Source of the DNA: Candidatus Magasanikiibacteriota bacterium
GTDB lineage: Bacteria; Patescibacteriota; Patescibacteriia; Magasanikbacterales; GWA2-37-8
Assembly (NCBI GenBank): GCA_009694865.1
Contig: SICD01000002.1
Span: 1 to 61,634 of the forward strand
Length of the DNA stretch: 61,634 bases
Reading direction: 5' to 3'
Shown: positions 27,643 through 57,570 of the stretch, in pieces
How positions within the stretch are numbered: the first letter of the stretch is position 1
Layout of the letters: the number at the start of each line of letters is the position of its first letter
The notes under the pieces: model-generated
The model's input: the letters and a program-made list of their open reading frames with translations, nothing else
Told to the model about the DNA's origin: nothing
The model's database searches: none
Program-made: the position numbers and the translations under genes

Positions 27643-27684
27643 TTGCGATATATATTGTCAAGTTAATTGTCCAGTCCGTCGTTC

Positions 27685-28148: not shown

Positions 28149-28163
28149 ACTATTTTATTTGTG

Positions 28164-28403: not shown

Positions 28404-28419
28404 AGAGATCTGATTGACG

Positions 28420-28521: not shown

Positions 28522-28584
28522 TCGGCACCACGTGAATTCGTCTGCAAGCCTACCATATCATTTATGATATGTTATGTCAAATTG

Positions 28585-36975: not shown

Positions 36976-36977
36976 AT

Positions 36978-37199
36978 TTATTCGGCGTTGGTTTGGTAGG
37001 CGGGCATCTCCTCGGAGATAATGCCATGATCGGGATACTTCTCTTTAATTGCGTCCACAATAATTTTATTGGCAATTAAATCAGCTTCGGTAACCACGTC
37101 CCCGAGATTTTCTTTGGTATATTTAACACCAATTTTTCCGAATTGTTCCAGCACCGCCGCTCCGGATTCAAGTGTAATTTTTTTAATAAATTCTTCCAT
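36978..37199 (-). pseudogene. N-terminal fragment of an inositol-monophosphatase-family gene
   Basis: The 73 aa end with DVVTEADLIANKIIVDAIKEKYPDHGIISEE. The ORF stops just before the expected WxxDPxDGT motif, whereas full-length relatives are about 260 aa. Confidence 0.55.
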
Positions 37200-37290
37200 A
37201 AAATTATGCTATTTTTGTGATCACTCTTACTGGCAAGGCTTCAGCTTCTAGTTTTAGAGATAGAGCGATGATTTCGAAGTGTTGACTAAA

Positions 37291-37869
37291 TTATTGTAAT
37301 GGTGCCCAGCTCCAGGGCACATTAAAGGCCTCGCAGTGGATGGTGATAGCGTTATAATCGGTCAGGGTTAGATTGGCCGGGAGTTCGTAGGTTTGTTGGC
37401 CGGTGATGCTTTTGAGTTTGCCCAAATTCAATCCGGCTTTAATATCGGCGCGCGAACTCGGCGCGGTATTTTTGGTAAGATAGATTTGCAGATCCGGTCC
37501 GTTTGGAGTTTTAAAATCATCGCCCAGTACTACGTAATTTTTTCCGTCTTTAATCATTAGGCTCGCGTTTCCATCGGTCATGTAGTTAAGACGCGTAAAC
37601 TTTCCTGCTCGGGCCACGGCGCCAGTAAAATTTTTATCGGCCGTGACCCTAGCGGTCGGGACATTTGAGGCGGACGGATTATTTTTCATTGAGTCAACCA
37701 TTTTTTGGGTTGCGACTTCAACCGGGTCTTCGGCCGGCCCGGCAGTTGGTGATGGTGTGGCGGGGGCGGTTGGGACAGCCGTTGACGACGGGGCGGTTGG
37801 GGCGCTGGCGCAACCAGCGCCCAGGAACAGGAGGGCGGCGAGACTGAAAAGAGCGGTGCGAGTTTTCAT
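37291..37869 (-). CDS. DM13-domain lipoprotein
   Basis: Lipobox LFLGAGC, a Pro/Ala/Thr linker, and a DM13-like pattern GNASLMIKDGKNYVVLGDDFKTPNGPDLQIYL. Confidence 0.7.
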   Translation of the reverse strand: MKTRTALFSLAALLFLGAGCASAPTAPSSTAVPTAPATPSPTAGPAEDPVEVATQKMVDSMKNNPSASNVPTARVTADKNFTGAVARAGKFTRLNYMTDGNASLMIKDGKNYVVLGDDFKTPNGPDLQIYLTKNTAPSSRADIKAGLNLGKLKSITGQQTYELPANLTLTDYNAITIHCEAFNVPWSWAPLQ

Positions 37870-37919
37870 AGAGAATACGTTAATCCCGATTTTGCTTCGC
37901 GCAAAATCGAGGAGAATAA

Positions 37920-40172: not shown

Positions 40173-40250
40173 AATTTTTTAAGTGCGGCGGCCACGGCTT
40201 TTTTGGTGATTTTTTTGATGAATTCTTCCATACTATACTATTCTATCTAA

Positions 40251-40625
40251 TTATCTAACAATTTCGTGTTTAAAAAATTTTTCAACAAAATTTACCGCAT
40301 TTTCAATTTCTTCGTCGGATAAATATTTTCCTTCCGGCACAATGATTAGTTTGTCATCGTCGTCTTCTAAGCGGTGAATGATTGCGACACATATTCCGCC
40401 CGCTTCTTTTAGCGGCTCCTGCGGACCAATAAAGTAGGCGTCGAGCGCGTCTCCATCGGAGGCAGTAGTGCCTGGAATAAATCCATAGTTATATTGATAC
40501 ATGATATTTTTATACACGGTGCCGTAGGGTTGGTCGATTATAATTTTTACCTTTTTTCCAAGATATTCTAGGCACATTTCTAGACTGATTGATTTATTGT
40601 TTTTGAGGGGCGTCAGTCCATCCAT
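40251..40625 (-). CDS. Short family-I inorganic-pyrophosphatase-like protein
   Basis: YNYGFIPGTTASDGDALDAYFIG...RLEDDDDKLIIVP resembles the PPase active-site region. Only 124 aa. Confidence 0.55.
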   Translation of the reverse strand: MDGLTPLKNNKSISLEMCLEYLGKKVKIIIDQPYGTVYKNIMYQYNYGFIPGTTASDGDALDAYFIGPQEPLKEAGGICVAIIHRLEDDDDKLIIVPEGKYLSDEEIENAVNFVEKFFKHEIVR

Positions 40626-40744
40626 ACTGCTTGCTTATGTAGTTAAATTTTGTTATTGTTAGTCAATAGAATTGCTCGTATCATAGCAGAAATTGATTAG
40701 AATTACCAGATGTTCACATTATTACAGTGTTGGCTCTCAATCAA

Positions 40745-40799
40745 GGGGATTGCCACGCCTGCCTGCCGGTAGGCAGGTCGCTACGCTCCTCGCAATGAC
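40745..40799. repeat. Family A arm upstream of and overlapping the glycosyltransferase start
   Basis: The reverse complement reads GTCATTGCGAGGAGCGTAGCGACCTGCCTACCGGCAGGCAGGCGTGGCAATCCCC. Confidence 0.6.
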
Positions 40800-42114
40800 A
40801 CTTGTGCAGCCAAAAATTCTCATCCTCCACGACTATTTTTTGTATAAAGGCGGCGGGGAGCGGCTGGTGATTAGCCTTGCCAAAAATTTGGGAGCAGATG
40901 TAGCCACGGCGTTTATTGCCAAGGACGCGTTTGACCCGCGTGAGCACGGAATAAAGACGATTGAACTGTATAAAGAAAAACCCTGGTCGCGAGTGCCGGG
41001 GTTTAGGTATTTGCAGGTGCAGTTGTCGTTTTTGTTTAAGACGAAATTTGTACGGAATTATGATGTAGTGATTTATAGTGGGGATTGTTTGGTGGCGGTG
41101 ATAAGGGCGTTGGGGTGGCGTGGATTGTGGCGAACCAGCGAGACCTCTCCCCAACCCTCCCCCCTGCGGTGGGGAGGGGGGCCAATCACACCTCCTCCAC
41201 CGCAGGGGAGGAGGCAGGAGGAGGATTCACATCATCTACGCAACATCGCCTATATGCATTCACCGCCCAGGCATTTGTATGATTTGTACAAGGAACGACT
41301 GGCGGCCTATCCTTGGTGGAAGAAAATTATTTTTGTGCCGTTTGTTTGGTTTAACCGCTGGCGATTTGAGTGGTTGTGTCGGAAATTGGATACAATTGTA
41401 ACTAATTCGGAGAATACGCGTAAAAGAATACAGCAGTATTTGGGTTTAGACTCAGTGGTGGTGTATCCACCGTGCGATACGTTGGTGTTGAAGAATGGGA
41501 GCGAGACCTCTCCCCAACCCTCCCCCCTGCGGTGGGGAGGGGGGCCAATCACACCTCCTCCACCGCAGGGGAGGAGGCAGGAGGAGGACTCGTCACCGGT
41601 CCACCCTTATTTTTTCTCCTGGGCACGATTGTATGATGTTAAGCGCGTGCCAATGATTGTGGAGGCCTTTATTAAAATGCCGGATAAACAGTTGATAGTG
41701 GCATCGGGTGGCCCGGATTTAGAAAAAATCCAAAAAATGGCGGCAGGACATTCGAATATAAAAATTTTAGGTTGGATTAATGACGAGCAGTTGATTGAGT
41801 ATTTAGGGAAATGTTTGGCAACGATTTATATCCCGATGCAGGAAGATTTTGGTATGACGGCGGTGGAGAGTATGCAAGCGGGGAAGCCGGTGATTGGGGT
41901 GGCGGAGGGCGGGCTCCTTGAAATTATTGAAGATAATAAAAATGGATTGATGTTAGAATCAAATTTTACGGTGGATGATTTGTGCGCGGCGGTGCAGTCA
42001 CTTACGCCGGATCGAGCCAGTGTAATGGAGAGTGTGTGCGAAGAAACCGCAAAGAAATTTTCCGAAAAAAGTTTTATTGAGGGGATGAAGAAAGTGATTG
42101 AAGGTGTTTGTTGA
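40795..42114 (+). CDS. GT4-family glycosyltransferase carrying two identical internal Family B repeats
   Basis: Start trimmed to MTLVQPKILILHDYF. C-terminal GT1/GT4 pattern EDFGMTAVESMQAGKPVIG. Inserts lie at 41137-41225 and 41500-41588. Confidence 0.85.
   Translation: MTLVQPKILILHDYFLYKGGGERLVISLAKNLGADVATAFIAKDAFDPREHGIKTIELYKEKPWSRVPGFRYLQVQLSFLFKTKFVRNYDVVIYSGDCLVAVIRALGWRGLWRTSETSPQPSPLRWGGGPITPPPPQGRRQEEDSHHLRNIAYMHSPPRHLYDLYKERLAAYPWWKKIIFVPFVWFNRWRFEWLCRKLDTIVTNSENTRKRIQQYLGLDSVVVYPPCDTLVLKNGSETSPQPSPLRWGGGPITPPPPQGRRQEEDSSPVHPYFFSWARLYDVKRVPMIVEAFIKMPDKQLIVASGGPDLEKIQKMAAGHSNIKILGWINDEQLIEYLGKCLATIYIPMQEDFGMTAVESMQAGKPVIGVAEGGLLEIIEDNKNGLMLESNFTVDDLCAAVQSLTPDRASVMESVCEETAKKFSEKSFIEGMKKVIEGVC
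41137..41225. repeat. Family B element, copy 1 inside the glycosyltransferase CDS
   Basis: 89/89 nt identical to 41500-41588. Hairpins are CCCTCCCC-CCTGCGGT-GGGGAGGG and CCTCCTCC-ACCGCAGG-GGAGGAGG. Confidence 0.85.
41500..41588. repeat. Family B element, copy 2 inside the glycosyltransferase CDS
   Basis: Identical to copy 1, offset by 363 nt (same reading frame). Both encode SETSPQPSPLRWGGGPITPPPPQGRRQEEDS. Confidence 0.85.
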
Positions 42115-42251
42115 TACTTTTTGGTAGCAAAAAGTATCCAAAAAACCATTGGGGCGCCATAACTCCCGCCAAAGGCGGGCAGGCGCCTCTATCTCGGTGG
42201 CTCCTTGCCCCGTCGAATGACGGGGGAACAAGGCCGCCCCCAAACCCCCAG
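42113..42251 (+). repeat. Family C structured repeat, copy 1
   Basis: GATACTTTTTGGTAGCAAAAAGTATC hairpin + CAAAAAACCATTGGGGCGCC...variable...AACAAGGCCGCCCCCAAACCCCCAG. Overlaps the glycosyltransferase stop codon. Confidence 0.7.
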
Positions 42252-42273
42252 ATGTGCGCGAATTAAATTTATT

Positions 42274-43614
42274 ATGACAATGCGAAAGCTTGTTTCTGTA
42301 TTATTTATCATTCTAATGATTGGGTTATTTGGAACTCATTTTTTTGTTGTTCCAGCGCGGGCAGATGACACGGGGGCGACGCAGCAGCAATTGGAACAGC
42401 AGCTCCAAGATATTGAAAAGCAGATTTTGGTTTTAGAAAAACAGCTGGCAACTACCGCGAGCCAAAAGAAAACGCTGGCGAGTCAGATTAAAAAATTGCA
42501 GACCAAGCAAGACCAGTTGCGGCTTCAGATTAAGGCGACTAATTTAAAACTCAATAAAATTGCTAAAAATATTGCTGTTACCGAAGTGGCAGTTGCGTCA
42601 ACACGCGCGACGATTCAGGATCAACAGCGCCAAGTGGCGGTGTTTCTACGGCTAATGAACCAGCAGGATGAAACGCCATGGTTAGTGCTCATAACCGAAG
42701 CGGGGGGTCTTAATAAAATTTTTACTGAAATTCAAAATTATATTATTATCTCGTCGGAGCTCGGGCGTTTAACCAAAGCTGCCAAGACAAGCCAAGTTAA
42801 ATTGGAGGGACAAGTCGCGAGTTTAACTGACGCGAAGAACGATACAACGGAACTATTGCAAATAAAAATCGTGCAACAGGCGGCGCTGGGTGGTCAGCTC
42901 ACGGAGCAGAGTGATTTGCTGGTTGAAACCAAAGGCAAAGAGAGCAATTTTCAATCCCTGCTCACAGATAGCAGGAAAGCCGCTGCCGAAATTCGCGGAC
43001 GCATTTATGAGCTATTTGGCACCACCAAGAATATTGATTTTGGCCAGGCCGTGGCAATTGCGGAATTTGTGGCGGCAAAAACTGGTATTAGACCGGCGTT
43101 TCTTTTGGCGATTCTTACACAGGAGTCGAATCTTGGTAAAAATGTAGGTACATGTAACCGAATTGGAGATCCGCCTGAGAAAAGTTGGAAAGTTGTTATG
43201 AAACCGGAGCGCGACCAGGAACCGTTTTTAAAAATTACCCAGGATTTAGGTTTGGACACGGATACGACTCCAGTCTCATGTCCGCTAAAAGATAAAAAAG
43301 GGAAGCAATTTGGGTGGGGCGGGGCGATGGGGCCGGCTCAGTTTATTCCGTCTACGTGGATGGGGTACACGGCGAAAGTGAGCGCGCTCACGGGGAAGAC
43401 GCCAGCCAACCCGTGGGATATTCGTGACGCGTTTGCGGCGTCAGCGATAAAGTTAACTCATGATGGAGCGGACGGTACCAGCGAGGGGGAGTGGAAGGCG
43501 GCGATGAAGTATTTTTCTGGCTCAACCAATACGCGGTATCGGTTTTATGGCGATAATGTCCTCACAATTGCGGAGGGGTATGAAAAAGATATACAAGCAT
43601 TGAAGAATCAGTGA
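42274..43614 (+). CDS. Secreted coiled-coil protein with C-terminal lytic-transglycosylase-like domain
   Basis: Start trimmed out of the repeat to MTMRKLVSVLF (signal/TM). Long Gln/Leu coiled coil, and a C-terminus AILTQESNLGKNVGTC...GAMGPAQFIPSTW. Confidence 0.7.
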   Translation: MTMRKLVSVLFIILMIGLFGTHFFVVPARADDTGATQQQLEQQLQDIEKQILVLEKQLATTASQKKTLASQIKKLQTKQDQLRLQIKATNLKLNKIAKNIAVTEVAVASTRATIQDQQRQVAVFLRLMNQQDETPWLVLITEAGGLNKIFTEIQNYIIISSELGRLTKAAKTSQVKLEGQVASLTDAKNDTTELLQIKIVQQAALGGQLTEQSDLLVETKGKESNFQSLLTDSRKAAAEIRGRIYELFGTTKNIDFGQAVAIAEFVAAKTGIRPAFLLAILTQESNLGKNVGTCNRIGDPPEKSWKVVMKPERDQEPFLKITQDLGLDTDTTPVSCPLKDKKGKQFGWGGAMGPAQFIPSTWMGYTAKVSALTGKTPANPWDIRDAFAASAIKLTHDGADGTSEGEWKAAMKYFSGSTNTRYRFYGDNVLTIAEGYEKDIQALKNQ

Positions 43615-43625
43615 CGATAGTGGCT

Positions 43626-43745
43626 GATACTTTTTTGATGGCAAAAAAGTATCCAAAAAACCATTGGGGGCGGCTAACTCGCTTCAGGAATATCTTTTCA
43701 CCGCGTGTTGAGTTAGCTCAAACAAGGCCGCCCCCAAACCCCCAG
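43626..43745 (+). repeat. Family C structured repeat, copy 2
   Basis: GATACTTTTTTGATGGCAAAAAAGTATC + CAAAAAACCATTGGGGGCGGCTAACTC...GAGTTAGCTCAAACAAGGCCGCCCCCAAACCCCCAG. Confidence 0.7.
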
Positions 43746-43784
43746 GGTGGCGTGGACAAAGTTTTTAGAAAGTGACAGTGATTA

Positions 43785-44345
43785 TTATTGCTTTTTGAGA
43801 AGTACGGACAACTTTTGTTTTATTTTGGCAAGTTTTGGATTAATCACCGCCGCGCAGTAAGCCTGGTCGGGGTTGCGGGCGAAATAATTGTGGTGGTATT
43901 CTTCGGCTTCGTAGAATTTGGTGAGTGGCTCCACAGTAGTGACGGCGTTAACGCCGTCTTTTTGTAACTCCGCAATATATTTTTCCGCGGCGATTTTTTG
44001 TTCATCGTTTGAGCATAAAATGGTGGAGCGATATTGCGTGCCCATGTCATTGCCTTGGCGGTTGAGGGTGGTGGGGTCGTGGCTGCCAAAAAAGACGGTT
44101 AAAATTTCTTCCAATGAAATAATGGCGGGGTCAAATTCTACGCGCACTACTTCGGCATGGCCGGTGGCGCTACCGCAGACGGATTCGTAGGTTGGGTTTG
44201 GTATTGTGCCACCGGCATAACCGGGCACAACGGAAATGACGCCGCGGATCTTTTTTCCGCCCGAGGCGGATCCACCTAGGGTGGAAAAAACGGCTTCGGT
44301 GCACCAGAAGCAGCCGGAGCCGAGGACGATAGATTGGGTGGGCAT
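43785..44345 (-). CDS. msrA: Peptide methionine (S)-sulfoxide reductase
   Basis: [10 protein letters not shown] active-site motif, [28 protein letters not shown]. Confidence 0.92.
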
Positions 44346-44357
44346 GGGGATTATTTG

Positions 44358-44750
44358 TTATTGATGTCGGGGGTGGGCATCTGGGTACAGGAGTGGCTCC
44401 TCTTTTTCTCCAATTGTGTCTACCCCCGGGTAAGTATCGTTTTCTCCAAGTAAATCATCACGCCGTGCACGCATCGCGCTGGTGCGCTCATTTTCTTGTG
44501 CTCGTTTATTTAATTCACGCAGCTCCTCCCGTTCAGCCAGTTCAGTCCGTAGTTGTTGTATAGCCACTTTAAAATAAGCATTGTTTCGTTTTTCAACATA
44601 ATTTGGTTCGCCGCGTTTACCATAAAATTTTTCCAGCGCTTTTCCGACGGAAAATTGTAACGTGTAACCACTGTCAACCCACGTTAAGGCTTCAGCAACT
44701 ATTTTGTTGATTATGACGGTTTCTAAGCCGTTGCGTTTTGGTAGTGTCAT
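44358..44750 (-). CDS. Hypothetical protein
   Basis: 130-aa ORF overlapping the upstream gene by 4 nt. No motif recognised. Confidence 0.5.
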   Translation of the reverse strand: MTLPKRNGLETVIINKIVAEALTWVDSGYTLQFSVGKALEKFYGKRGEPNYVEKRNNAYFKVAIQQLRTELAEREELRELNKRAQENERTSAMRARRDDLLGENDTYPGVDTIGEKEEPLLYPDAHPRHQ

Positions 44751-45580
44751 AGTGGGCGGGCGTTTATATAATGGCGCCGTTCTTTTTTGTTTAATTTTTC
44801 AATCGCGTATCGCAACATCGTGCGGGGCATGGTTGGATGATGTTGATTGAGAAATTTTTTCAGTAGGGGTGTATTGCCATACGCCAGCATTTCGCGTTTG
44901 CCAACTTCACGGAGCATCCAGCCGGTGGCTTTGTGAATTAAATCATGTTTGTCGTTAAGAAGCAAGGTGGCGAGGTGAATGGTTTCTTTGAAACGATTGG
45001 CGCGGATGAAGGCGAAGGTGGCGACGATGGCGATGCGGCGTTCCCAGAGGTTTGGGGAGCGGGCGAGGGTGGTGAGAAGAGCCAGCCGTGACTGAACCCC
45101 CCTCTCTGTCTCCCCCCTTATAGGGGGGAGAGGAATACGTTTGCCCTCCCCTATAAGGGGAGGGACGGAGGGTGGGGTTTTCGTTTCGCGTTCATCGTTC
45201 ACAAGATATTCCCCCACAATCTGCGAGGCGGATGCGTCCACTAAATCCCAATTATTAACGCGTTTGGCATTTTTGAGGTAGAAAGAAAATATTTTTTTCT
45301 TTTGAGATCCAGTACCTGTTTGAAATTGATGTACCAAGATGACGAGCGCGATGAAACGTCCCTCATGAATTTTTGATTTGAGTAGTTTTTGGATGTCGGG
45401 GAGGGGTAGAGTATAAAAATTTTTAGCAATTTTTCTTCGTTCGGGCACGGTGAGACCTAAAAATTTGTCGCCTTCGCCGTATTCGCCATGGCCGGTTTTG
45501 TAAAATCCACTGTATATTTTGGCTTTAGCGGGGTTGGCGTGGGAGTGGAGGATTTTTTTGAGTTGGGATAATGTCGGCAT
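44747..45580 (-). CDS. DNA alkylation repair (AlkD-like HEAT-repeat) protein carrying an internal Family B repeat
   Basis: Start trimmed out of a Family A arm to MPTLSQLKK. Motif VNNWDLVDASASQIVGEYL. The insert is encoded by 45095-45179. Confidence 0.8.
   Translation of the reverse strand: MPTLSQLKKILHSHANPAKAKIYSGFYKTGHGEYGEGDKFLGLTVPERRKIAKNFYTLPLPDIQKLLKSKIHEGRFIALVILVHQFQTGTGSQKKKIFSFYLKNAKRVNNWDLVDASASQIVGEYLVNDERETKTPPSVPPLIGEGKRIPLPPIRGETERGVQSRLALLTTLARSPNLWERRIAIVATFAFIRANRFKETIHLATLLLNDKHDLIHKATGWMLREVGKREMLAYGNTPLLKKFLNQHHPTMPRTMLRYAIEKLNKKERRHYINARPL
45095..45179. repeat. Family B element inside the alkD-like CDS
   Basis: Hairpins TCTCCCCCC-TTATA-GGGGGGAGA and CCCTCCCC-TATAA-GGGGAGGG within an AACCCC...GGGGTT outer stem. 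Translated as TPPSVPPLIGEGKRIPLPPIRGETERG. Confidence 0.65.
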
Positions 45581-45587
45581 ACATATA

Positions 45588-45623
45588 GTGAGCCAGAGAT
45601 TCCTCCTGCGACGTCGGAATGAC
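45588..45623. repeat. Family A arm
   Basis: GTGAGCCAGAGATTCCTCCTGCGACGTCGGAATGAC, nearly identical to the arm at 18517-18550. Confidence 0.65.
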
Positions 45624-45628
45624 AATGT

Positions 45629-46495
45629 CTATTCCTGACTCGGATAAATTAAGCTTCCGTCATACGTTCCCCCGGCGATGTCGGGTCTGCGATCGACTTT
45701 GGTGTTGTTGGTGCCGGGGCCGCAATCTGGGTTCAGTGGGGCGGCTTCGAAGTGGTTATTTTCGATGGTTGGTTTGGCGCCTTGTTCGCAGTTTATTGAG
45801 AGCTGCGCATCGTGGAGAAAATTGTTGGTGACGATATTGTCATTTCCAGCCTTAAGGCCAATAGCTTGGTGCCAGCAGTGGTAAACTTCGTTGTGATCAA
45901 TACGGTTGCCGGAGGAGAAAATATCAATGCAACTCCAGAGTGAATCATGTACTCGGCTGTTGGTGACAGACACATTATTGCCCTGCACATTGATGCCATT
46001 GTGGGCGTAGCTCACCTCAACATGATCGAGCTTGCTTCCGCTCGCGAGCACAAGTTCATCCCAATCGGCGTACTCGGGTTTGGCCTGTGCGGACGTAAAA
46101 ATAATTGGTTGTACGGCGGTGCCGATGGCGAGTATTCTTCCGTAAATTTCAAAATGCGATTTATTGTAACCGGTGTGGCCGGTGGGATCGTTGTGTTTGG
46201 TGATGAAATCGTCCGCGTATTTTGTCCACGGGGTGTTGGGAGCATTGGGATTTTTTTCAAATAGAATTTTCGTGCCGGGTTCGATCGTCAATGGTGCCCA
46301 TGGGGCGAAGTAGGTATCGCCAGTGATGTGGATGGTGCCACCCCAAATTTCGGAGCGAAGATGAATACCGGAGCGGGTAGTATTGAAAATGTTTTGGGGA
46401 GGAAGGAAGAGAAAAATTTTGAAAAAAATTAGAATCGTGAGGGGGGCGGCGATCAAAGTGGTGAGAATTTTATAGTGGGAGATGAATTGAAACAT
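45629..46495 (-). CDS. Membrane-anchored right-handed parallel beta-helix repeat protein
   Basis: N-terminal TM segment, then PbH1-like repeats (HNGINVQGNNVSVTNSRVHDS, NRIDHNEVYHC, DNIVTNNFLHD). Confidence 0.7.
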   Translation of the reverse strand: MFQFISHYKILTTLIAAPLTILIFFKIFLFLPPQNIFNTTRSGIHLRSEIWGGTIHITGDTYFAPWAPLTIEPGTKILFEKNPNAPNTPWTKYADDFITKHNDPTGHTGYNKSHFEIYGRILAIGTAVQPIIFTSAQAKPEYADWDELVLASGSKLDHVEVSYAHNGINVQGNNVSVTNSRVHDSLWSCIDIFSSGNRIDHNEVYHCWHQAIGLKAGNDNIVTNNFLHDAQLSINCEQGAKPTIENNHFEAAPLNPDCGPGTNNTKVDRRPDIAGGTYDGSLIYPSQE

Positions 46496-46529
46496 GTAAT
46501 TATTTTTGTAACGTGTTTTTATTTTTTAA

Positions 46530-47177
46530 CTATTTTTTCCCCAACACAAAATTATTCCACCAGTATGTTTTTATTTGGATAATTGAAAAACCAGCGTTTA
46601 GCAAAAATTGAGCCAGTTCGTCTCGGCTATAATACGCGTGGGCGTATTCGAGCGGTTTGATTATTTTGGTGACGAGATATTTGAGGACACGATTGTTGAA
46701 AGCGATGTCGGCAAGAAGGAAGAGACCGCCCGGTTTGAGGACGCGATGAATTTCGCGGAGGGTGTTTCCAGGTTCGGAAAAATGGTGGAAGGCTTCGGAG
46801 CACAGGATAATATTAAAAGTTTGATCGGGGAATGGGAGGCTGCTTGCGTTGCCTTCGCGAAATGTTAGGTTGGTTAATTTGTTTGTTTTGGAGCGGGCGG
46901 TGGCAATCATTTCTGGCGTTAAATCAAGGCCGGTGAATTGCGTGGCCGGAAATTCGTGGGCGAGGCGATAGAGAACTTCGGCAGTGCCGCAGGCGACGTC
47001 GAGCATAGTGGTGCCGGTGCCTAGAAGTAGAGGTTCAAAATTTTGAACCTCTACTTGTTTGAGAAGGGAAATAATTTTTCGATAGAGTGGTTCAAAAAAT
47101 AACCGTGAACGCAGGCGGTCATATTTTTTGGCCCAGCGGCCAAAGAAGGCGCGGTTGTGAGATTCGTGGGTGTTCAT
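46530..47177 (-). CDS. Class I SAM-dependent methyltransferase
   Basis: Motif I MLDVACGTAEV, FNIILCSEAFHHF, and LKPGGLFLLAD. Confidence 0.85.
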   Translation of the reverse strand: MNTHESHNRAFFGRWAKKYDRLRSRLFFEPLYRKIISLLKQVEVQNFEPLLLGTGTTMLDVACGTAEVLYRLAHEFPATQFTGLDLTPEMIATARSKTNKLTNLTFREGNASSLPFPDQTFNIILCSEAFHHFSEPGNTLREIHRVLKPGGLFLLADIAFNNRVLKYLVTKIIKPLEYAHAYYSRDELAQFLLNAGFSIIQIKTYWWNNFVLGKK

Positions 47178-47222
47178 AATGTGCCTTTAGTATATCATGC
47201 CGGGTGGGTGGAGGAAATTGTG

Positions 47223-47255
47223 AAAATAAAAACAGCCTTATGAAAAAGCTGTTTT
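47223..47255 (-). terminator. Rho-independent terminator of the GC-rich-island gene
   Basis: AAAACAGC-(11 nt)-GCTGTTTT with a U-run on the minus strand. About 22/28 nt are shared with the hairpin at 56301-56328. Confidence 0.55.
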
Positions 47256-47319
47256 ATAGGGACCTCGATGATAGCGCCCCCTCGACGCACCTCGAGGTAG
47301 AATGCGTCGGATTGGTCCC

Positions 47320-47667
47320 CTAGAGGCCGTGGCGAAGCAGGAAAGCCTCGACCGCCCTAACGACCGCATGATCGGCGGTACCGTCGGCGAGGATGTGCTC
47401 GTCTCGGTAGAAGCAGAACCAGCCGTTGTCGGCGCACACCTGCGCCAACTTTTCCCGGGCACAGTCCATGCGAGAAGATGCCCGCACCATCACCGGACCC
47501 TCCGACCAGTCCTTCTTCGGAAGCGAATCGATGGTGCCGCCCCAGTGCTGCTCGTCCAGCATTACCCCACGATCACTGAGGAACTGGAGCAGGTTTTGGG
47601 AACTCATCGCCGCGTCGATGCTTTCCAGGCTGACGTAGCCTGGAAAGAGATACACTTTTACCTTCAC
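47320..47667 (-). CDS. Hypothetical protein in a GC-rich island
   Basis: 115-aa ORF with a GTG start 6 nt after AAGGAGG. GC content is far above its flanks. Competing overlapping ORFs lack an RBS. Confidence 0.55.
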   Translation of the reverse strand: MKVKVYLFPGYVSLESIDAAMSSQNLLQFLSDRGVMLDEQHWGGTIDSLPKKDWSEGPVMVRASSRMDCAREKLAQVCADNGWFCFYRDEHILADGTADHAVVRAVEAFLLRHGL

Positions 47668-47804
47668 GATGATCCTCCTTTCTCCCGCGCCAGTGCGGGA
47701 GTGGCAGAACCATAGCAGAGAGAGAGAGTTGTAAAGGCCTGTGGGGTGGATAAAAAAACAGAAATTCGTGGAGAATTTCTATAAGTGTTTTTGATTGTGT
47801 GATT

Positions 47805-47899
47805 GATACTTTTTGGTGGCAGAAAGTATCGCAAAAACCACTGGGTGGCCAGAACTCGTCGCTTCACTCCTCAAACAGCTGGCCCCCCAGACCCCCAAG
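47805..47899 (+). repeat. Family C structured repeat, copy 3 (diverged)
   Basis: GATACTTTTTGGTGGCAGAAAGTATC + GCAAAAACCACTGGGTGGCCAG...CTGGCCCCCCAGACCCCCAAG. Confidence 0.6.
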
Positions 47900-47913
47900 G
47901 AAACAATTTTTTC

Positions 47914-47975
47914 TTATTTTACTTTTCGTTCGCGTTTGGGGATTTTGAAGGAGATGAGGTTGCGCTGTTGGTTTA
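47914..47975 (-). pseudogene. Remnant of a recQ 3' end
   Basis: The reverse complement encodes ...NLISFKIPKRERKVK*, compared with the recQ C-terminus ...NLQTKISLKIPKRERKIK*. Nucleotides 47897-47955 match 50010-50068 at about 54/59. Confidence 0.6.
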
Positions 47976-48137
47976 GTAAATTATAGTGGCTAAAGTAAGG
48001 TGCTGTTTTGATTTTAGCCTTGATAAGAACAAGCCCGCTCTCTTGACATTTTTAACCACAAGGTTTATAGTTATGGCATAGAGTATGAAATGTTACATAC
48101 TACAACATACTAGACTAATAAATTACAATTGCCCAAG

Positions 48138-48162
48138 ATCCCGACCAAGTCGGGATTTTTTA
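48138..48162 (+). terminator. Terminator-like hairpin 14 nt upstream of the helicase start
   Basis: ATCCCGAC-CAA-GTCGGGAT followed by TTTTT. Shares the CCCGACCAAGTCGG core with 19661-19676. Confidence 0.4.
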
Positions 48163-48175
48163 ATGTAATAACACT

Positions 48176-50008
48176 ATGCAAGAAAAATTAAAGAAGACAA
48201 TTCTTGACCAGTCTCGTAAGCATATTGCAGACATTCGTCAAAAAATTGATGATACTATTAAGCGTCGTGAGGCTAAAACAGCTGTTATGAAAAAATCGGC
48301 AATCTCAATGTTGCCCGGCGACGCAATGGCCCAGTATAAAATTGCGGCCAACAACCAAGAGCAAGTCGAAAATCTTAAACAACTTTATCCGTCGCCCTAT
48401 TTTACCCGTTGTGAATTTGAAATTAACGGTGAGAAAAAAATAATGTATTTTGCTAAGTTTTCTTTTAGCGACGAAAAAATATATTCATGGATTACCCCAG
48501 CCTCGACGCTCCGTTTTGAGAACCCTGGCCCCGCTTCTTACGCTCGACCAGACGGAAAAGTACAATCAGGGGTATTGCTGAGTAAAAATCAGTACATGAT
48601 TGTTGACGGCAAGCTATTATTTCTTTCGACCGAAAGTACGGAACACAGAAGGGAGCTGATCTACCAAGAACATTTTACCCGTCAAAAGTCCGGTTTTATT
48701 TTGCCAGAAGTAGTGGAGCAAATGGAAAAAGCACAAGACCAAGTGGTGCGTGCTCCGTATCGTGGGCCTTTTCTCATTTCTGGCCCGGCTGGTTCAGGAA
48801 AAACAACATTGGCGCTCCATCGCGTTGCCTACTTAATGCAATCGCCGGAAACCGCTGAGCTATTTCCGACTAATTCTATATTGGTTTTAGTCCAAGATAT
48901 CGGCACTAAAGAATATTTTTCGCACTTGCTTCCCGAGTTAGGTATACGAGGAGTGGAAATTATCACGTTTGCGGAATGGGCTTTGACTATACTGGATTTA
49001 AGTAACAATTACCACGTTATTGTTCGCTATGGCACCAACGAGCAAGAAAGAAATTTGTATGAGTATAGCAAGATTATTGCTTTAAAACAGTTACCGAACG
49101 ACACAAATTTTAACAAAAATATTTGGGGGTTGCTTCAAAAAATTTATAAAAATGTTTTTAACAAAGCCCAACAAGAGCTATTCGTTCAACAAAAAAACGA
49201 GCTCGCGCTAGACCGTTTTGATCTAACCATTTTATTGAAGTACTATTTCAAAACGTATGGACAGTTTACGATACGTAAAGATTATTATGAGGAATTGGCC
49301 AGTGGGTCTTATCGTAAAAAGAACAACGCCTTTCAAGTAGAGTATAATTTAACAATTATTGATGAGTTCCAAAATTATTTGCCCGAACAACTGGCCTTGC
49401 TTAAAACGTGCCTTAATCATCGGTTGGAGTCAATAGTATACGTTGGCGATTTGGCACAACAAACGCAATTAGGAACGGTGAGAGATTGGGATAGTATTGG
49501 AGAAAAAATCGAAAGCAATAGACTGGTTACTCTTCAAAAGGTATATCGCAACACGAAACAAATTTTGAACTTTATTCGTGAGCTTGGTTATGCTGTCCAA
49601 ATACCGCAAGGAGTTAAAGAAGGTCGGTTGGTAATGGAGTATGTGTTTGAATCAAAACAAGAGGAGATAGCCAAAATTAACAAAATTTTATTGGACTCTA
49701 GTGGTGGTGCCATTGGGATTCTTGCGAAAGATAGAGAATACCTCGATGAATTTAAGAGGGAGTTTGGCGAGAACCCAAATGTGCACTGTCTAAACATGCT
49801 GGAAGCGCAGGGTGTAGAATTTGAAACGGTTTGTCTTGTTGGTATTGATAAAAGTTCTTTTGGCGTTGATGGGTTGCCACAGGCGGCGCTAGAAGAAATA
49901 AAAAAAGTTCAGCGAGATTTATTATATGTGGCACTTACTCGTGCCATGTCGGAATTGCACATTATGGGCAAGACGAGATTAAAAGATATTTATGATAGCA
50001 GTTTTTAA
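48176..50008 (+). CDS. UvrD-superfamily helicase, HelD (helicase IV)-like
   Basis: N-terminal coiled coil, then PYFTRCEFEI...MYFAKFS...SWITPASTLRF. Walker A GPAGSGKTT, Walker B IIDEFQN, C-terminal LLYVALTRAMSELHIMG. Confidence 0.75.
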   Translation: MQEKLKKTILDQSRKHIADIRQKIDDTIKRREAKTAVMKKSAISMLPGDAMAQYKIAANNQEQVENLKQLYPSPYFTRCEFEINGEKKIMYFAKFSFSDEKIYSWITPASTLRFENPGPASYARPDGKVQSGVLLSKNQYMIVDGKLLFLSTESTEHRRELIYQEHFTRQKSGFILPEVVEQMEKAQDQVVRAPYRGPFLISGPAGSGKTTLALHRVAYLMQSPETAELFPTNSILVLVQDIGTKEYFSHLLPELGIRGVEIITFAEWALTILDLSNNYHVIVRYGTNEQERNLYEYSKIIALKQLPNDTNFNKNIWGLLQKIYKNVFNKAQQELFVQQKNELALDRFDLTILLKYYFKTYGQFTIRKDYYEELASGSYRKKNNAFQVEYNLTIIDEFQNYLPEQLALLKTCLNHRLESIVYVGDLAQQTQLGTVRDWDSIGEKIESNRLVTLQKVYRNTKQILNFIRELGYAVQIPQGVKEGRLVMEYVFESKQEEIAKINKILLDSSGGAIGILAKDREYLDEFKREFGENPNVHCLNMLEAQGVEFETVCLVGIDKSSFGVDGLPQAALEEIKKVQRDLLYVALTRAMSELHIMGKTRLKDIYDSSF

Positions 50009-50026
50009 GAAGGAAACAATTTTGTT

Positions 50027-51871
50027 TTACTTTATTTTTCGTTCGCGTTTGGGGATTTTGAGGGAGATTTTGGTTTGGAGATTGTGCGACTGACAGTAAG
50101 TGGAAATCGCGGAGATAAATTGTTGCCCGTATTTTGAAGTTTTTAAATCGCCGAAGCCGGAGATTTTGCGGATGTCCTCAAGAGACATAGGGAGATAGGT
50201 GGCGAGTTCGAGAATGGTGGCGTCGGAAAAAATAAGATAAGGCGGGACGTTTTCGGCGCGGGCGAGATTCGTACGGATGAGTTTGAGATTGGTGAATAAT
50301 TCTGGTTCAGAGGGGACGTCTTCTTGTTGAGGTGCCACTGGCTGTGACCGTACGGCAGTTTTTATTAACATTACGATTTCTTTGCCTTGGAGCACGGGCA
50401 CGCTTTTTTCGGTGAGTTTTAAAACGGGGTACTCCAGGCCGCCGACGCGGAGGTAGCCGAGGCCGACGAGGTCTTTGAGGTAGCGGAGCCAGAGTTCTTT
50501 GGGGAGGTCGGCGCCGGCGCCGTAGGTTTTGAGGGCGCGATGTTCGTCTTTCATTTTTTCTGATTTGGAACCGCGCAAAAAATCTGTCACGTAGTGGCGG
50601 CCGTACTGGCCTTCCAGGCGCGCGACGGCGGAGAGGGCTTTTTGGGCAATGAGTGTGCCGTCGAATCGTTCCACTTCGGTGAGACAGGAGTCGCAACTGG
50701 CGCAGGCAGCGGAAGTTTCTTCCCCAAAATAGTTTAAGAGCAGTTTTCTACGGCAGTCACGACTTTCGCCGTAGGCCATCATTTGGTTAAGTTTTTTGAG
50801 GAGGATGGTGTTTTGTTCCGGATTATTTTCAATTTGTATAAATTTTTTTAATTTCATTACATCGCCGGCGCCGTAAAAAAGCAAGGCGTCACTTCTTAAG
50901 CCATCGCGACCCGCTCGCCCGGTTTCTTGGTAATAGCTTTCAATATTTTTGGGGAGATCGACGTGGATAACAAAACGCACGTTGGATTTGTTGATGCCCA
51001 TGCCAAAGGCAATCGTGGCCACGATAATTTTTACGTCATCTTTAATAAAAAGTTCTTGATTTTCTCGGCGCGTCTCCGGGTTAAGGCCCGCATGATATGG
51101 GCGCACGGAAAAACCTTGGAGATCCAGATTTTCGGCCAGGTCCTCGGCGGATTTTCGGGATAAAGTGTAGATGATACCAGAGTCATCGCGGTGTTTTTCT
51201 AAATAATTGCCGAGGCGATTGGTGAGGCTGTTTTTTGGTTCCACAAAATAGTGAATATTGGGGCGGTTGAAGCTGGAGAGAAAAACTTCGGCTTTTTGGA
51301 GGCCAAGTTTCTCCATAATGTCGCGGCGAGTGGTTTCGTCGGCCGTGGCGGTGAGGGCGATGGTGGGCGCGCGCGGGAATAATTCTTTGAGGCGGGCGAG
51401 CAGGCGATACTCGGGTCGGAAGTCGTGGCCCCAGGCGGAGATGCAGTGGGCTTCGTCAATGGCGAACAGTGAGACGTTGAGCGTTTGTAAGAATTGCAAA
51501 AATTCGCCGCTACCGCCGAGGAGTCGTTCGGGGGCGACGTAAAGGAGTTTGAGTTTGTTTTGTCGGAGTTCGTTCATTACCCACGTGCGGTCGTCGGTCG
51601 AGAGGGTAGAATTTAAAAAAGCGGCCGGGATGCCGTTCAAGCGCAGGGCGTCCACCTGATCTTTCATGAGGGCGATGAGAGGAGAAATGACGACGGTGAG
51701 GCCGGGGAAGAGAAGCGCGGGAATTTGGTAACAAAGCGATTTGCCACCGCCGGTTGGCATTACGGCAAGGGCATCACGCCCCTCGAGCACAGCGTTAATG
51801 GCGCCCTCTTGCTCGTGGCGGAATGAGTCGTAGCCGAATTTGGTTTTGAGGAGGTCGAGAGCGGAGGGCAT
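50027..51871 (-). CDS. recQ: ATP-dependent DNA helicase RecQ
   Basis: TGGGKSLCYQIPA, DEAHCISAWGHDFRPEY, Zn-binding Cys cluster, and a C-terminal HRDC-like segment. Confidence 0.95.
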   Translation of the reverse strand: MPSALDLLKTKFGYDSFRHEQEGAINAVLEGRDALAVMPTGGGKSLCYQIPALLFPGLTVVISPLIALMKDQVDALRLNGIPAAFLNSTLSTDDRTWVMNELRQNKLKLLYVAPERLLGGSGEFLQFLQTLNVSLFAIDEAHCISAWGHDFRPEYRLLARLKELFPRAPTIALTATADETTRRDIMEKLGLQKAEVFLSSFNRPNIHYFVEPKNSLTNRLGNYLEKHRDDSGIIYTLSRKSAEDLAENLDLQGFSVRPYHAGLNPETRRENQELFIKDDVKIIVATIAFGMGINKSNVRFVIHVDLPKNIESYYQETGRAGRDGLRSDALLFYGAGDVMKLKKFIQIENNPEQNTILLKKLNQMMAYGESRDCRRKLLLNYFGEETSAACASCDSCLTEVERFDGTLIAQKALSAVARLEGQYGRHYVTDFLRGSKSEKMKDEHRALKTYGAGADLPKELWLRYLKDLVGLGYLRVGGLEYPVLKLTEKSVPVLQGKEIVMLIKTAVRSQPVAPQQEDVPSEPELFTNLKLIRTNLARAENVPPYLIFSDATILELATYLPMSLEDIRKISGFGDLKTSKYGQQFISAISTYCQSHNLQTKISLKIPKRERKIK

Positions 51872-52019
51872 ATGTACGAAATACGAAAGCTACGAAAGTA
51901 CGAAATGCAATGGACGCGCTCTCATGATAGCTAAAATGTGGGGCGGAGGCAATGAGTTGTGTCCTTTGAAGCGCGACGGTTTTATATTTAATGTGGCCAC
52001 ATCTATATTTTTATTTCTG

Positions 52020-52104
52020 CGGAGAGGGTGAGATTCGAACTCACGGTCCCTTGCGGGACACGGCTTTTCGAGAGCCGCACTTTAGACCACTCAGACACCT
52101 CTCC
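52020..52104 (-). tRNA. tRNA-Ser (anticodon CGA)
   Basis: GGAGAGGTG...anticodon arm CGGCT-CTCGAAA-AGCCG, long variable arm, T-arm GTGAGTTCGAATCTCAC. No encoded CCA. Confidence 0.88.
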
Positions 52105-57162: not shown

Positions 57163-57210
57163 GCGGAAAAAATAAGATTCGAACTCACGGTACCTTGCGG
57201 TACGACAGTT
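57163..57210 (-). pseudogene. Decayed 3' half of a second tRNA-Ser(UGA)-like gene
   Basis: AGATTCGAACTCACGGTACCTTGCGGTACGACAGTTTT is identical to the intact gene, but the acceptor 3' strand GAGGGTG is replaced by AAAAATA, which disrupts the T stem. Confidence 0.6.
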
Positions 57211-57267
57211 TTTCCCCCTCGCGGGGGATCACCCGAGCTGTGGCTCTGGCGAGAGGGTGACAAGACT
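57207..57267. repeat. 61-nt direct repeat, copy 1 (anticodon-loop flanks plus 48-nt GC-rich Family-B-like insert)
   Basis: AGTTTTTCCCCCTCGCGGGGGATCACCCGAGCTGTGGCTCTGGCGAGAGGGTGACAAGACT, 60/61 identical to 57458-57518. Confidence 0.8.
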
Positions 57268-57278
57268 TACCACTACAG

Positions 57279-57363
57279 CGGAGAGGGTGAGATTCGAACT
57301 CACGGTACCTTGCGGTACGACAGTTTTCAAGACTGTTGGTTTCAACCGCTCACCCACCTCTCC
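57279..57363 (-). tRNA. tRNA-Ser (anticodon UGA), intact
   Basis: GGAGAGGTGGGTGAGCGGTTGAAACC..., anticodon arm ACAGT-CTTGAAA-ACTGT, long variable arm CGTACCGCAAGGTACCG, T-arm GTGAGTTCGAATCTCAC. Confidence 0.88.
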
Positions 57364-57457
57364 GCTCTCGTGATAAATTTTAATTTTCTACGCTGAAATT
57401 TTTTATTCTTCTTTTTTAATTTACTTTCAATAAAGTAGACTACTCCCATACGTGTAA

Positions 57458-57518
57458 AGTTTTTCCCCCTCGCGGGGGATCACCCGAGCTGCGGCTCTGG
57501 CGAGAGGGTGACAAGACT
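57458..57518. repeat. 61-nt direct repeat, copy 2
   Basis: Same sequence as 57207-57267 with one C/T difference. Confidence 0.8.
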
Positions 57519-57570
57519 GTTGGTTTAAACCGCTCACCCACCTCTCCGCTCTCGCGATAAATTTAATTTT
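57512..57570 (-). pseudogene. 5' half of the interrupted tRNA-Ser(UGA)-like gene plus duplicated upstream flank
   Basis: CAAGACTGTTGGTTTAAACCGCTCACCCACCTCTCC + GCTCTCGCGATAAATTTAATTTT, compared with the intact ...TTTCAACCGC...GCTCTCGTGATAAATTTTAATTTT. Confidence 0.6.

What the first reader, a model, noticed from the sequence alone, without database searches (positions are those of the whole stretch)
47897..50068. The HelD-like helicase gene is bracketed by a 59-bp direct duplication of the recQ 3' end
47897-47955 and 50010-50068 match at about 54/59 nt. The second copy is the true recQ terminus (...ISLKIPKRERKIK*) plus 17 nt of downstream sequence. The first copy is an orphan remnant still encoding ...ISFKIPKRERKVK*, with weaker similarity continuing to about 47975. 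The 2.05 kb between them contains only the helD-like gene. That gene is convergent with recQ, with an 18-bp gap. It is preceded by a terminator-like hairpin 14 nt before its ATG, with no obvious promoter or SD sequence. This has the same signature as the ahcY cassette: a gene inserted at the extreme end of a housekeeping gene with a long target duplication that keeps the host gene intact.
Basis: seen in the sequence. Interest (0 to 1): 0.65.

Follow-up and report, generated by a model that had tools for sequence, protein, structure and literature searches.

The report
helD gene flanked by recQ-end duplication
In this uncultured CPR/Patescibacteria genome, a horizontally mobile helD-like helicase gene sits beside recQ between two 59-bp copies of the recQ end, which looks like a scar of homologous recombination with DNA from a relative, not a transposon footprint: real and instructive, but not a new kind of element.

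Summary
Positions 47897-47955 and 50010-50068 match at 54/59 nt (self-BLAST E 1.7e-16). There are only two copies in the window, and Logan contigs from four metagenome runs confirm both junctions. The orphan is exactly 59 nt. The claimed weaker extension to about 47975 is not significant, and the nearest recQ relative (L168, 80% nt) aligns to the orphan only over 47897-47955.

The bracketed gene is a HelD-like helicase. This promoter-to-stop module occurs in six different contexts in related genomes, never with flanking repeats. Its synonymous divergence from a syntenic relative (pS 0.53) is well below that of five pooled background genes (0.70), so it moves horizontally.

There are no terminal inverted repeats. 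No recombinase was found among the ORFs searched, though a few ORFs of 100 aa or more were not searched.

Polarised by L168, the five repeat differences fit one crossover inside a 26-nt identical block. In the ahcY analogue, the orphan keeps the native 5' UTR and the intact gene takes its start codon from the insert. A target-site duplication cannot produce that.

Best reading: Campbell-type or one-sided homologous integration. This is a new member of a known kind, of modest interest.

The parts
47803..47896 (+). Copy of a structured intergenic repeat family ('D3'). It ends exactly where the orphan begins and is the presumed native flank downstream of recQ.
   Evidence: Other copies lie at 42111-42270 and 43626-43764. 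It folds as two stems with compensatory differences. A further copy elsewhere in the metagenome loses homology at exactly 47896.
47897..47955 (-). DR1, the orphan 59-nt copy of the recQ terminus: 14 codons (ISFKIPKRERKVK), the stop codon and 17 nt of downstream sequence.
   Evidence: It is 94.9% identical to the recQ end of relative L168, and that homology stops at both repeat borders.
47956..48041 (.). 86-nt spacer of unknown origin between the orphan and the helD module. It is not detectably recQ-derived.
   Evidence: not significant; no match in any fetched locus; L168 does not align here.
48043..48071 (+). helD promoter, TTGACA-N17-TATAGT. DNA homology among six helD loci begins here.
   Evidence: 11/12 match. 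Searches show homology starting at the -35 box in L162, L166, L167, L169 and L170.
48072..48175 (+). Conserved 5' leader with a 5' stem-loop and a terminator-like hairpin (48138-48156) plus T-run (48156-48161). There is no SD sequence.
   Evidence: Fold z-score -4.4. Position and structure are conserved in six loci; the window's stem has a different sequence at the same place. No Rfam family matches.
48176..50008 (+). HelD-like (class I-like) SF1 helicase/ATPase, 610 aa, GC 0.395.
   Evidence: Pfam UvrD-helicase. NCBIfam HelD_BACSU 1.3e-38, below the family cutoff. PDB 6WVK chain H 3.8e-28 over residues 18-268. Motif is SWITP where HelD has DWRAP.
50010..50068 (-). DR2, the functional recQ terminus (ISLKIPKRERKIK*) plus 17 nt. 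It starts 1 nt after the helD stop codon.
50027..51871 (-). Intact recQ, 614 aa, with DEAD, Helicase_C, RecQ_Zn_bind, RQC and HRDC domains.
   Evidence: Closest relative is P0122 at 84-85% aa and 80.4-80.7% nt.
52019..52104 (-). tRNA-Ser(cga), between ribD and recQ. It lies at the edge of a lineage-specific block (~37.2-52.0 kb) that is absent between ribD and VTT in relative L173.

Best explanation
**What it is.** A self-contained helD module (own sigma-70 promoter, conserved leader, CDS; 48042-50008) reached this genome on DNA from a related Patescibacteria lineage. That DNA already carried a short copy of the recQ terminus next to the helD stop codon.

**How it integrated.** Integration was by homologous recombination through that 59-bp homology. 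Either a circularised fragment of about 2.1 kb underwent a single (Campbell-type) crossover, or recombination was one-sided and homology-anchored. The crossover fell in the 26-nt perfectly identical block. A single crossover adds DNA rather than replacing it, so the homology tract is now present twice.
- DR1 is the orphan. It is still joined to the native downstream flank.
- DR2 is a hybrid end that completes an intact recQ.

**Shown:**
- the duplication and its sharp borders;
- the intactness of both genes;
- helD's horizontal mobility and variable location;
- the absence of transposon features.

**Inferred:**
- the circular or one-sided intermediate;
- the donor arrangement (helD beside recQ);
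- DNA uptake by competence.

**Consequence (inferred).** The two repeats could recombine again to excise a helD circle and restore a single recQ end.
For: 1. The repeat is a discrete 59-nt tract with sharp borders on both sides. L168 recQ aligns to the orphan only over 47897-47955 but runs on into the resident recQ.
2. Polarised by L168, four clustered differences (repeat positions 14, 16, 20, 25, next to helD) are derived in DR2. The single distal difference (position 52) is derived in DR1. A 26-nt identical block lies between them. This is the chimeric pattern that one crossover predicts.
3. helD is horizontally mobile.
 - Six homologs at 75-86% aa identity lie in six contexts: recQ; dnaN/Bro-N; a REP_ORF2 gene; rplT; gnd; HIT.
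 - The window is syntenic with L162/L173 for dnaA, dnaN, RNR, ahcY and ribAD, but helD lies between dnaN and RNR there.
 - Synonymous divergence window-L162 is pS 0.527 (CI 0.47-0.59) for helD against 0.699 (0.67-0.73) for five pooled syntenic genes; each of ten syntenic genes gives 0.65-0.78.
 - helD GC is 0.395 against 0.46 for the window.
4. There are no terminal inverted repeats. No integrase or transposase was found among the window ORFs searched. There is no third repeat copy.
5. The ahcY analogue 22 kb away supports the same process. The orphan ahcY 5' piece keeps the 5' UTR seen in relative L171. The intact ahcY takes its ATG, four codons and upstream sequence from the insert. That insert also carries an 80%-identical orphan of the pfkB 3' end, which is the other flank of the orthologous slot.
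6. Experimental precedent: single crossover of circular molecules gave 109-950 bp duplications of the homologous segment flanking the insert in E. coli (PMC3240628). CPR Saccharibacteria are naturally competent (PMC10187176, abstract).
Against: - No donor with helD next to recQ was found. None of about 160 recQ loci and none of six helD loci shows that arrangement.
- No empty site or excised circle was seen, but depth is only 3-8x and only contigs were available.
- 59 nt with a 26-nt perfect block is near the lower limit for RecA-type recombination (own knowledge).
- The polarity argument rests on five sites and one outgroup. About 6 of 32 random assignments would also fit.
- DR2's changes lie where constraint is weakest (last two codons and the 3' UTR), so ordinary drift could explain them.
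- The origin of the 86-nt spacer is unknown.
Confidence: 0.5

Rival explanations
1. Site-specific integration. The 59 bp would be an att site overlapping the recQ 3' end. The helD segment would be a decayed or integrase-less integrative element (like a cis-mobilizable element) that brought a replacement recQ end, with attL = DR1 and attR = DR2.
For: - Direct repeats of this size covering the 3' end of a target gene are the classical signature of integrase-borne islands (own knowledge).
- The polarity pattern of the five differences is also what attP x attB exchange predicts.
- The locus lies in a lineage-specific block next to tRNA-Ser.
- Partial tRNA-Ser duplications occur 7 kb away.
Against: - No integrase or recombinase was found among the window ORFs searched.
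- The 2.1-kb segment holds only helD.
- The same helD module in five other contexts carries neither the 59-bp site nor the 86-nt spacer.
- There is no third att copy.
Confidence: 0.15
2. True long target-site duplication. An unknown insertion mechanism makes nicks about 59 nt apart at the recQ end. The helD DNA is ligated in and the gaps are filled. The copies were identical at birth and have since diverged by 8.5%.
For: - The repeat brackets the insert exactly.
- The window holds two other inserts flanked by repeats of similar length: 77 nt at ahcY and 61 nt at tRNA-Ser.
Against: - There are no terminal inverted repeats and no transposase was found.
- Five other helD insertions have no duplication.
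- The functional copy, not the pseudogene copy, carries 4 of the 5 changes, clustered within 12 nt.
- In the ahcY analogue the sequence just outside the repeat supplies an in-frame start codon, and the orphan keeps the native UTR. A target-site duplication would not produce this.
- Repeats of about 60 nt or more are what a homology threshold would give anyway.
Confidence: 0.1
3. The orphan is the last 59 nt of a second recQ copy, either a paralogue or a replaced resident allele. Its body was deleted or overwritten, possibly when a block carrying helD plus the present recQ (or the left-hand block) came in by homology-facilitated illegitimate recombination.
For: - The orphan is closer to L168 recQ (3 differences) than the resident end is (about 6).
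- recQ itself lies in a lineage-specific block, and its only close relative (L168) has different neighbours on both sides.
- recQ versus L168 pS is 0.52, as low as for helD.
Against: - This needs the truncation point and the helD block to coincide so that the two copies bracket exactly one gene.
- No other recQ fragment exists in the window.
- The 14 nt of non-coding sequence at the outer end are identical in both copies, which is unexpected for diverged paralogues.
Confidence: 0.15
4. Assembly or binning artefact that joins two strains.
For: The source is a metagenome assembly at low coverage.
Against: Independent per-run Logan contigs from four runs span DR1 with both of its flanks and DR2 with both of its flanks at 100% identity. 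A separate ENA contig spans the whole locus.
Confidence: 0.02

Closest known systems
Campbell-type (single-crossover) insertion-duplication and homology-facilitated illegitimate recombination
   Same: The inserted DNA is flanked by a direct duplication of exactly the homologous tract. The target gene stays intact. No element-encoded recombinase is needed. Chimeric repeat copies are expected. Duplications of 109-950 bp were observed experimentally (PMC3240628).
   Different: This is a natural event in an uncultured CPR genome with only 59 bp of homology. The donor and the circular intermediate are inferred, not seen.
Integrase-borne genomic islands and cis-mobilizable elements flanked by att repeats at the 3' end of a gene
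   Same: A direct repeat of tens of bp covers the gene's 3' end. The element supplies a replacement end. An orphan end is left on the far side.
   Different: No integrase was found among the window ORFs searched. The cargo is one gene. The putative att site does not travel with helD elsewhere.
Transposon target-site duplications
   Same: Direct repeats of target sequence lie on both sides of an insert.
   Different: The length is 59 bp against the usual 2-15 bp (own knowledge). There are no terminal inverted repeats and no transposase was found. The copies differ in a crossover-like pattern.
Integron gene cassettes (attC, the '59-base element')
   Same: A single-gene unit is associated with a repeat of about 59 bp.
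   Different: The repeat is coding sequence of the neighbouring gene, not an imperfect palindrome (fold z +0.9). There is no intI or attI and no array. The module carries its own promoter.
HelD, the RNA polymerase recycling motor (class I, B. subtilis; PDB 6WVK)
   Same: The N-terminal arm plus the 1A domain align (residues 3-273 to HelD positions 34-301). It has a UvrD-like motor and the FSDEK..W..P motif region.
   Different: It is 610 aa against 774 aa. The score is far below the NCBIfam cutoff (132 against 419 bits). The 'absolutely conserved' DWR motif reads SWI (PMC8655204). CPR is not among the described classes.

Membership tests
Transposable element with target-site duplication | Terminal inverted repeats or defined element ends | tested here: not met
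   The ends of 47956-50009 and of 48042-50009 align no better than shuffles (p 0.80 and 0.55).
Transposable element with target-site duplication | A transposase encoded in the element or nearby | tested here: not met
   Only helD lies between the repeats. No transposase or integrase Pfam hit was found in the window ORFs searched. A few ORFs of 100 aa or more were not searched, and several searched ORFs had no hit at all.
Transposable element with target-site duplication | The same element elsewhere is flanked by duplications of the same length | tested here: not met
   Five other helD loci have no flanking direct repeat.
Integrase-mediated island / cis-mobilizable element | attL and attR direct repeats overlapping the 3' end of the target gene | tested here: met
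   The 59-nt repeat covers the last 14 recQ codons plus 17 nt.
Integrase-mediated island / cis-mobilizable element | A tyrosine or serine recombinase in cis, or shown to act in trans | tested here: not met
   None was found among the window ORFs searched. The rest of the genome was not available.
Integrase-mediated island / cis-mobilizable element | The att sequence travels with the element (attP) | tested here: not met
   There is no recQ-end sequence or 86-nt spacer next to helD in L162, L166, L167, L169 or L170.
Integron cassette | An attC imperfect palindrome, and an intI/attI platform | tested here: not met
   The repeat does not fold (-9.4 kcal/mol, z +0.9). There is no integrase, and the module has its own promoter.
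Campbell-type / homology-anchored insertion-duplication | The duplicated tract equals a stretch homologous to the target, with sharp borders and direct orientation, bracketing the whole insert | tested here: met
Campbell-type / homology-anchored insertion-duplication | Chimeric copies: each repeat is part native and part incoming, switching at one point | tested here: inconclusive
   All five differences fit a switch within repeat positions 26-51 when polarised by L168. With five sites and one outgroup, the chance of a compatible pattern is about 0.19.
Campbell-type / homology-anchored insertion-duplication | A donor arrangement exists (helD adjacent to a recQ end), or a circular intermediate exists | tested here: not met
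   Not found in about 160 recQ loci, six helD loci or four metagenome runs. Sampling is thin: no helD above 86% identity is in the databases.
HelD (RNAP recycling motor) | An N-terminal secondary-channel arm homologous to HelD, plus a UvrD-like motor | tested here: met
   HelD_BACSU 1.3e-38 over residues 3-273. PDB 6WVK_H 3.8e-28. Pfam UvrD-helicase and UvrD_C.
HelD (RNAP recycling motor) | Score above the curated family cutoff, and a conserved DWR motif | tested here: not met
   132.5 bits against a cutoff of 419. The motif reads YSWITP, against DWRAP described as absolutely conserved (PMC8655204).
RecQ | DEAD, Helicase_C, RecQ zinc-binding, RQC and HRDC domains, full length | tested here: met
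   All five domains score above their cutoffs. The C-terminus matches relatives.

The most novel reading that the evidence does not exclude
The recQ/helD repeat (59 nt), the ahcY repeat (77 nt) and the tRNA-Ser repeat (61 nt) in one 61-kb window could be footprints of a dedicated insertion process that is still undescribed. Such a process would be recombinase-free, or encoded elsewhere in these CPR genomes. It would place promoter-to-stop gene modules at gene ends with target duplications of about 60-80 bp.
Probability: 0.07. Interest if true: 0.7.

Novelty: new member of a known kind. Interest (0 to 1): 0.33.

Why it matters
- **A dated trace of gene gain.** It gives a concrete, sequence-level trace of how small CPR/Patescibacteria genomes gain accessory genes from relatives. 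Short homologous gene ends act as anchors, the host gene survives, and an orphan end is left as a scar.
- **A possible general process.** Several such scars lie in one window (recQ, ahcY, pfkB, tRNA-Ser). This suggests the process is frequent in this lineage, which would fit the natural competence shown for cultivated Saccharibacteria.
- **Unrecorded HelD-like proteins.** HelD-like proteins are widespread in CPR, horizontally mobile and preceded by a conserved leader. None of this appears in the HelD phylogeny paper consulted (PMC8655204).
- **What it is not.** It does not reveal a new type of mobile element.

Tried and rejected
- **Extension of the orphan beyond 59 nt.** Shuffle tests, Pfam HRDC on the translated extension and the L168 probe were all negative.
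- **Third copies of the repeat.** None found. The collinear-looking bits at 45259-45301 are in the wrong order and lie inside a gene.
- **Synteny through recQ relatives.** The protein search found one useful relative, P0122/L168.
- **helD on phages.** No relative in IMG/VR. Only 23-29% partial hits in GenBank phages.
- **helD as a defence gene.** Only generic UvrD/GajB-type motor hits in PADLOC.
- **Rfam family for the leader or the D3 repeat.** None found. One sub-threshold snoRNA hit is chance.
- **Empty site or excised circle in reads.** Only Logan contigs at 3-8x were available, and no such joint was seen. The joints listed have sides of only 21-26 nt and were treated as spurious.
- **Full reconstruction of the ahcY/pfkB/XRE and tRNA-Ser rearrangements.** Not resolved.

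Full report
**1. The observation**

The window contains a direct repeat at 47897-47955 and 50010-50068, 54 of 59 nt identical. In a self-BLAST of the whole window it scores E 1.7e-16. Its 26-nt perfect core occurs only at these two places, against 0 expected.

Copy 2 holds the last 14 codons of a full-length recQ (50027-51871, minus strand; DEAD, Helicase_C, RecQ_Zn_bind, RQC and HRDC domains), then the stop codon and 17 nt. Copy 1 reads ISFKIPKRERKVK* in the same frame.

Between the copies lies one gene, 48176-50008 (+, 610 aa). It is convergent with recQ with an 18-nt gap.

Logan contigs assembled separately from four freshwater metagenome runs span DR1 with both of its flanks and DR2 with both of its flanks at 100% identity. 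A 6-kb ENA contig carries the whole locus. The structure is therefore real.

**2.

- *The weaker similarity beyond 47955 is not significant.* Shuffle tests give p 0.34-0.53 and there is no HRDC signal in the translation. The nearest recQ relative (L168: 80.4-80.7% nt, 84-85% aa) aligns to the orphan only over 47897-47955, while it continues into the resident recQ. The orphan is exactly 59 nt. The 86 nt at 47956-48041 are of unknown origin.
- *There is a promoter.* TTGACA-N17-TATAGT at 48043-48071 matches 11 of 12 positions.

**3. What the inserted gene is**

It is HelD-like. NCBIfam HelD_BACSU scores 1.3e-38 over residues 3-273, and PDB 6WVK chain H (B. subtilis HelD on RNA polymerase) scores 3.8e-28. 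The motor domains are UvrD-like.

It is not a canonical member. The score is well below the family cutoff, the protein is 160 aa shorter, and the DWRAP motif reads SWITP (PMC8655204). Homologs at 50-86% identity are widespread in Patescibacteria (Magasanikbacteria, Moranbacteria).

**4. The gene is a mobile module**

- *Variable location.* Six homologs at 75-86% aa identity lie in six different contexts: recQ (this window), dnaN/Bro-N (L162), next to a REP_ORF2-type gene (L166), rplT (L167), gnd (L169) and HIT (L170).
- *Defined limits.* In all six, DNA homology starts at the -35 box and ends at the stop codon. None of the other five has flanking direct repeats.
- *Synteny with a relative.* The window is syntenic with the L162/L173 relative for dnaA, dnaN, RNR, MgtC, Wzy, ahcY, pfkB and ribAD. 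In that relative helD lies between dnaN and RNR.
- *Younger than the genome split.* Synonymous divergence between the two genomes is near saturation for ten syntenic genes (pS 0.65-0.78; five pooled give 0.699, CI 0.67-0.73). For helD it is only 0.527 (CI 0.47-0.59).
- *Composition.* helD GC is 0.395 against 0.46 for the window.

helD has therefore moved horizontally since these lineages split.

recQ itself sits in a block (~37.2-52.0 kb, bordered by tRNA-Ser(cga)) that the L173 relative lacks between ribD and VTT. The one close recQ relative, L168, has different neighbours on both sides and no helD in its 183 nt of downstream sequence. None of about 160 more distant recQ loci has helD beside it.

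**5. How the duplication arose**

Transposition-type features are absent:
- no terminal inverted repeats;
- no transposase or integrase among the window ORFs searched;
- no repeat at the other helD insertions.

The five differences between the copies were polarised with L168. Four clustered changes (repeat positions 14, 16, 20, 25, the stop-codon side next to helD) are derived in the functional copy DR2. The single distal change (position 52) is derived in the orphan. A 26-nt identical block lies between them.

A single crossover between a resident recQ end and a slightly different recQ end carried on incoming DNA predicts exactly this. The orphan would be native on its outer side, and the functional end would be incoming next to helD. 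With five sites and one outgroup this is only suggestive: about 6 of 32 random patterns would fit, and DR2's changes lie where constraint is weakest.

- In the closest relative (L171, AhcY 91%), pfkB is followed directly by ahcY.
- In the window, a 77-nt repeat (97% identical) of the ahcY 5' coding region brackets 1.15 kb of inserted DNA.
- The orphan (27770-27852) keeps its own ATG and the native 5' UTR (27853-27885), which matches L171.
- The intact ahcY takes its ATG, its first four codons and its upstream sequence from the insert.
- The insert also carries an 80%-identical orphan of the pfkB 3' end, the other flank of the orthologous slot.

A target-site duplication cannot supply an in-frame start codon and a diverged copy of the opposite flank. 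Recombination with DNA from a relative that holds a different gene in the same slot can.

Experimentally, single crossover of circular molecules produced 109-950-bp duplications of the homologous segment flanking the insert (PMC3240628). CPR Saccharibacteria are naturally competent (PMC10187176, abstract).

**6. Best explanation and rivals**

- *Best explanation (confidence about 0.5).* Campbell-type or one-sided homology-anchored integration of a fragment of about 2.1 kb carrying helD plus a 59-bp recQ end.
- *att-type integration by a recombinase acting in trans (0.15).* It shares the repeat signature but lacks the enzyme, and the site does not travel with helD.
- *Remnant of a second or replaced recQ allele (0.15).* The orphan's greater similarity to L168 and recQ's own accessory status favour it, but it needs coincident borders.
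- *A true long target-site duplication (0.1).*
- *Assembly artefact (0.02).*

Not shown: the donor arrangement, the intermediate, and any excision product.

**7. Functional reading (inferred)**

- recQ is unchanged except for V to I at its penultimate residue.
- helD is transcribed from its own strong promoter through a leader that carries an intrinsic-terminator-like hairpin. This suggests attenuation-type control.
- No terminator separates the convergent genes, so read-through antisense to the recQ 3' end is possible.
- The repeats could mediate precise loss of helD.

**8. Verdict**

The finding is real and well explained by a known kind of event seen in an unusual organism. I classify it as a new member of a known kind, with interest about 0.33. 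The recurrence of similar scars in the same window is the part most worth following up.

Noticed in passing
window 42111-42270, 43626-43764, 47803-47896: A structured intergenic repeat family ('D3'): a perfect 11-12-bp hairpin, then a long G/C-rich stem with compensatory differences between copies (z -4.9, -3.8, -2.1). Two copies bracket the SLT-domain gene 42205-43614. A further copy elsewhere in the metagenome ends at exactly 47896. No Rfam match was found in either scan: the whole window at gathering scores, and 47700-48300 at E<=1, which covers only the third copy.
   Followed up: partly
window 26540-28665: The ahcY/pfkB slot is compound. It holds a 77-nt repeat of the ahcY 5' end (26540-26616 / 27770-27846, 97%), a 69-nt orphan of the pfkB 3' end (27315-27383 vs 28597-28665, 80%), and two XRE-type HTH paralogues (27386-27625 vs 28165-28404, 76%). 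Relatives have pfkB-ahcY adjacent (L171) or one MFS gene between them (L173). The orphan ahcY keeps the native 5' UTR.
   Followed up: partly
window 57163-57570: An intact tRNA-Ser(tga) (57278-57363) with 190 nt of context is bracketed by a 61-nt direct repeat (57207-57267 / 57458-57518, 98%). It lies inside a second, disrupted tRNA-Ser-like gene whose halves are separated by a 47-nt insert in the anticodon loop. The 3' acceptor strand of the outer copy is degenerate.
   Followed up: partly
window 48072-48175 (and L162:9892-10005, L166:5264-5379, L167:80-230, L169:165-278, L170:2684-2791): A conserved helD leader of about 100 nt: a 5' stem-loop (AGTATG...CATACT), then a terminator-like hairpin and T-run just before the ATG. 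Its sequence is at least as conserved as the CDS. The window's terminator stem differs in sequence but not in position. It is a candidate attenuator or cis-regulatory RNA with no Rfam family.
   Followed up: partly
window 47320-47667 (-) overlapping ORF 47302-47715 (+): A gene with GC 0.60, unusual for this genome (0.46), has a strong GGAGGA SD before a GTG on the minus strand. It has no Pfam, NCBIfam or PADLOC hit. The ENA annotation calls the opposite strand. It is probably another foreign gene in the recQ 3' flank.
   Followed up: partly
window 8127-14337: The dnaN-RNR slot holds helD, Bro-N and hydrolase genes in relative L162. Here it holds six other genes, including an AAA_14/DUF4143 ATPase that matches the PADLOC candidate defence family PDC-S01 (6.4e-70). 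This is a variable island right next to dnaA-dnaN.
   Followed up: partly
window ~37200-52000: This is a lineage-specific block between ribD and the VTT-domain gene, absent in relative L173. It is bordered by tRNA-Ser(cga) at 52019-52104. It contains recQ, helD, a methyltransferase, a beta-helix protein, an alkylation-repair gene, msrA, an SLT gene, a glycosyltransferase, a PPase fragment and a DAO-Rieske fusion. A 234-nt fragment of an inositol-phosphatase-like gene remains at 36972-37205.
   Followed up: partly
window 45095-45179, 28421-28519, 41137-41228 and 41500-41591: G/C-rich palindromic elements (CCCC...GGGG arms) lie inside or next to coding regions. One sits within the DNA-alkylation-repair ORF, whose Pfam match is split in two. 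A 92-nt pair (99% identical, 363 nt apart, in frame) sits inside the glycosyltransferase ORF. This is reminiscent of in-frame palindromic elements.
   Followed up: no
window 50027-51871 vs L168: recQ versus its only close relative has pS 0.52. That is as low as for helD and lower than ahcY versus the closest known genome (0.65). recQ has different neighbours on both sides in L168, so recQ itself may be an exchanged accessory gene in these lineages.
   Followed up: partly
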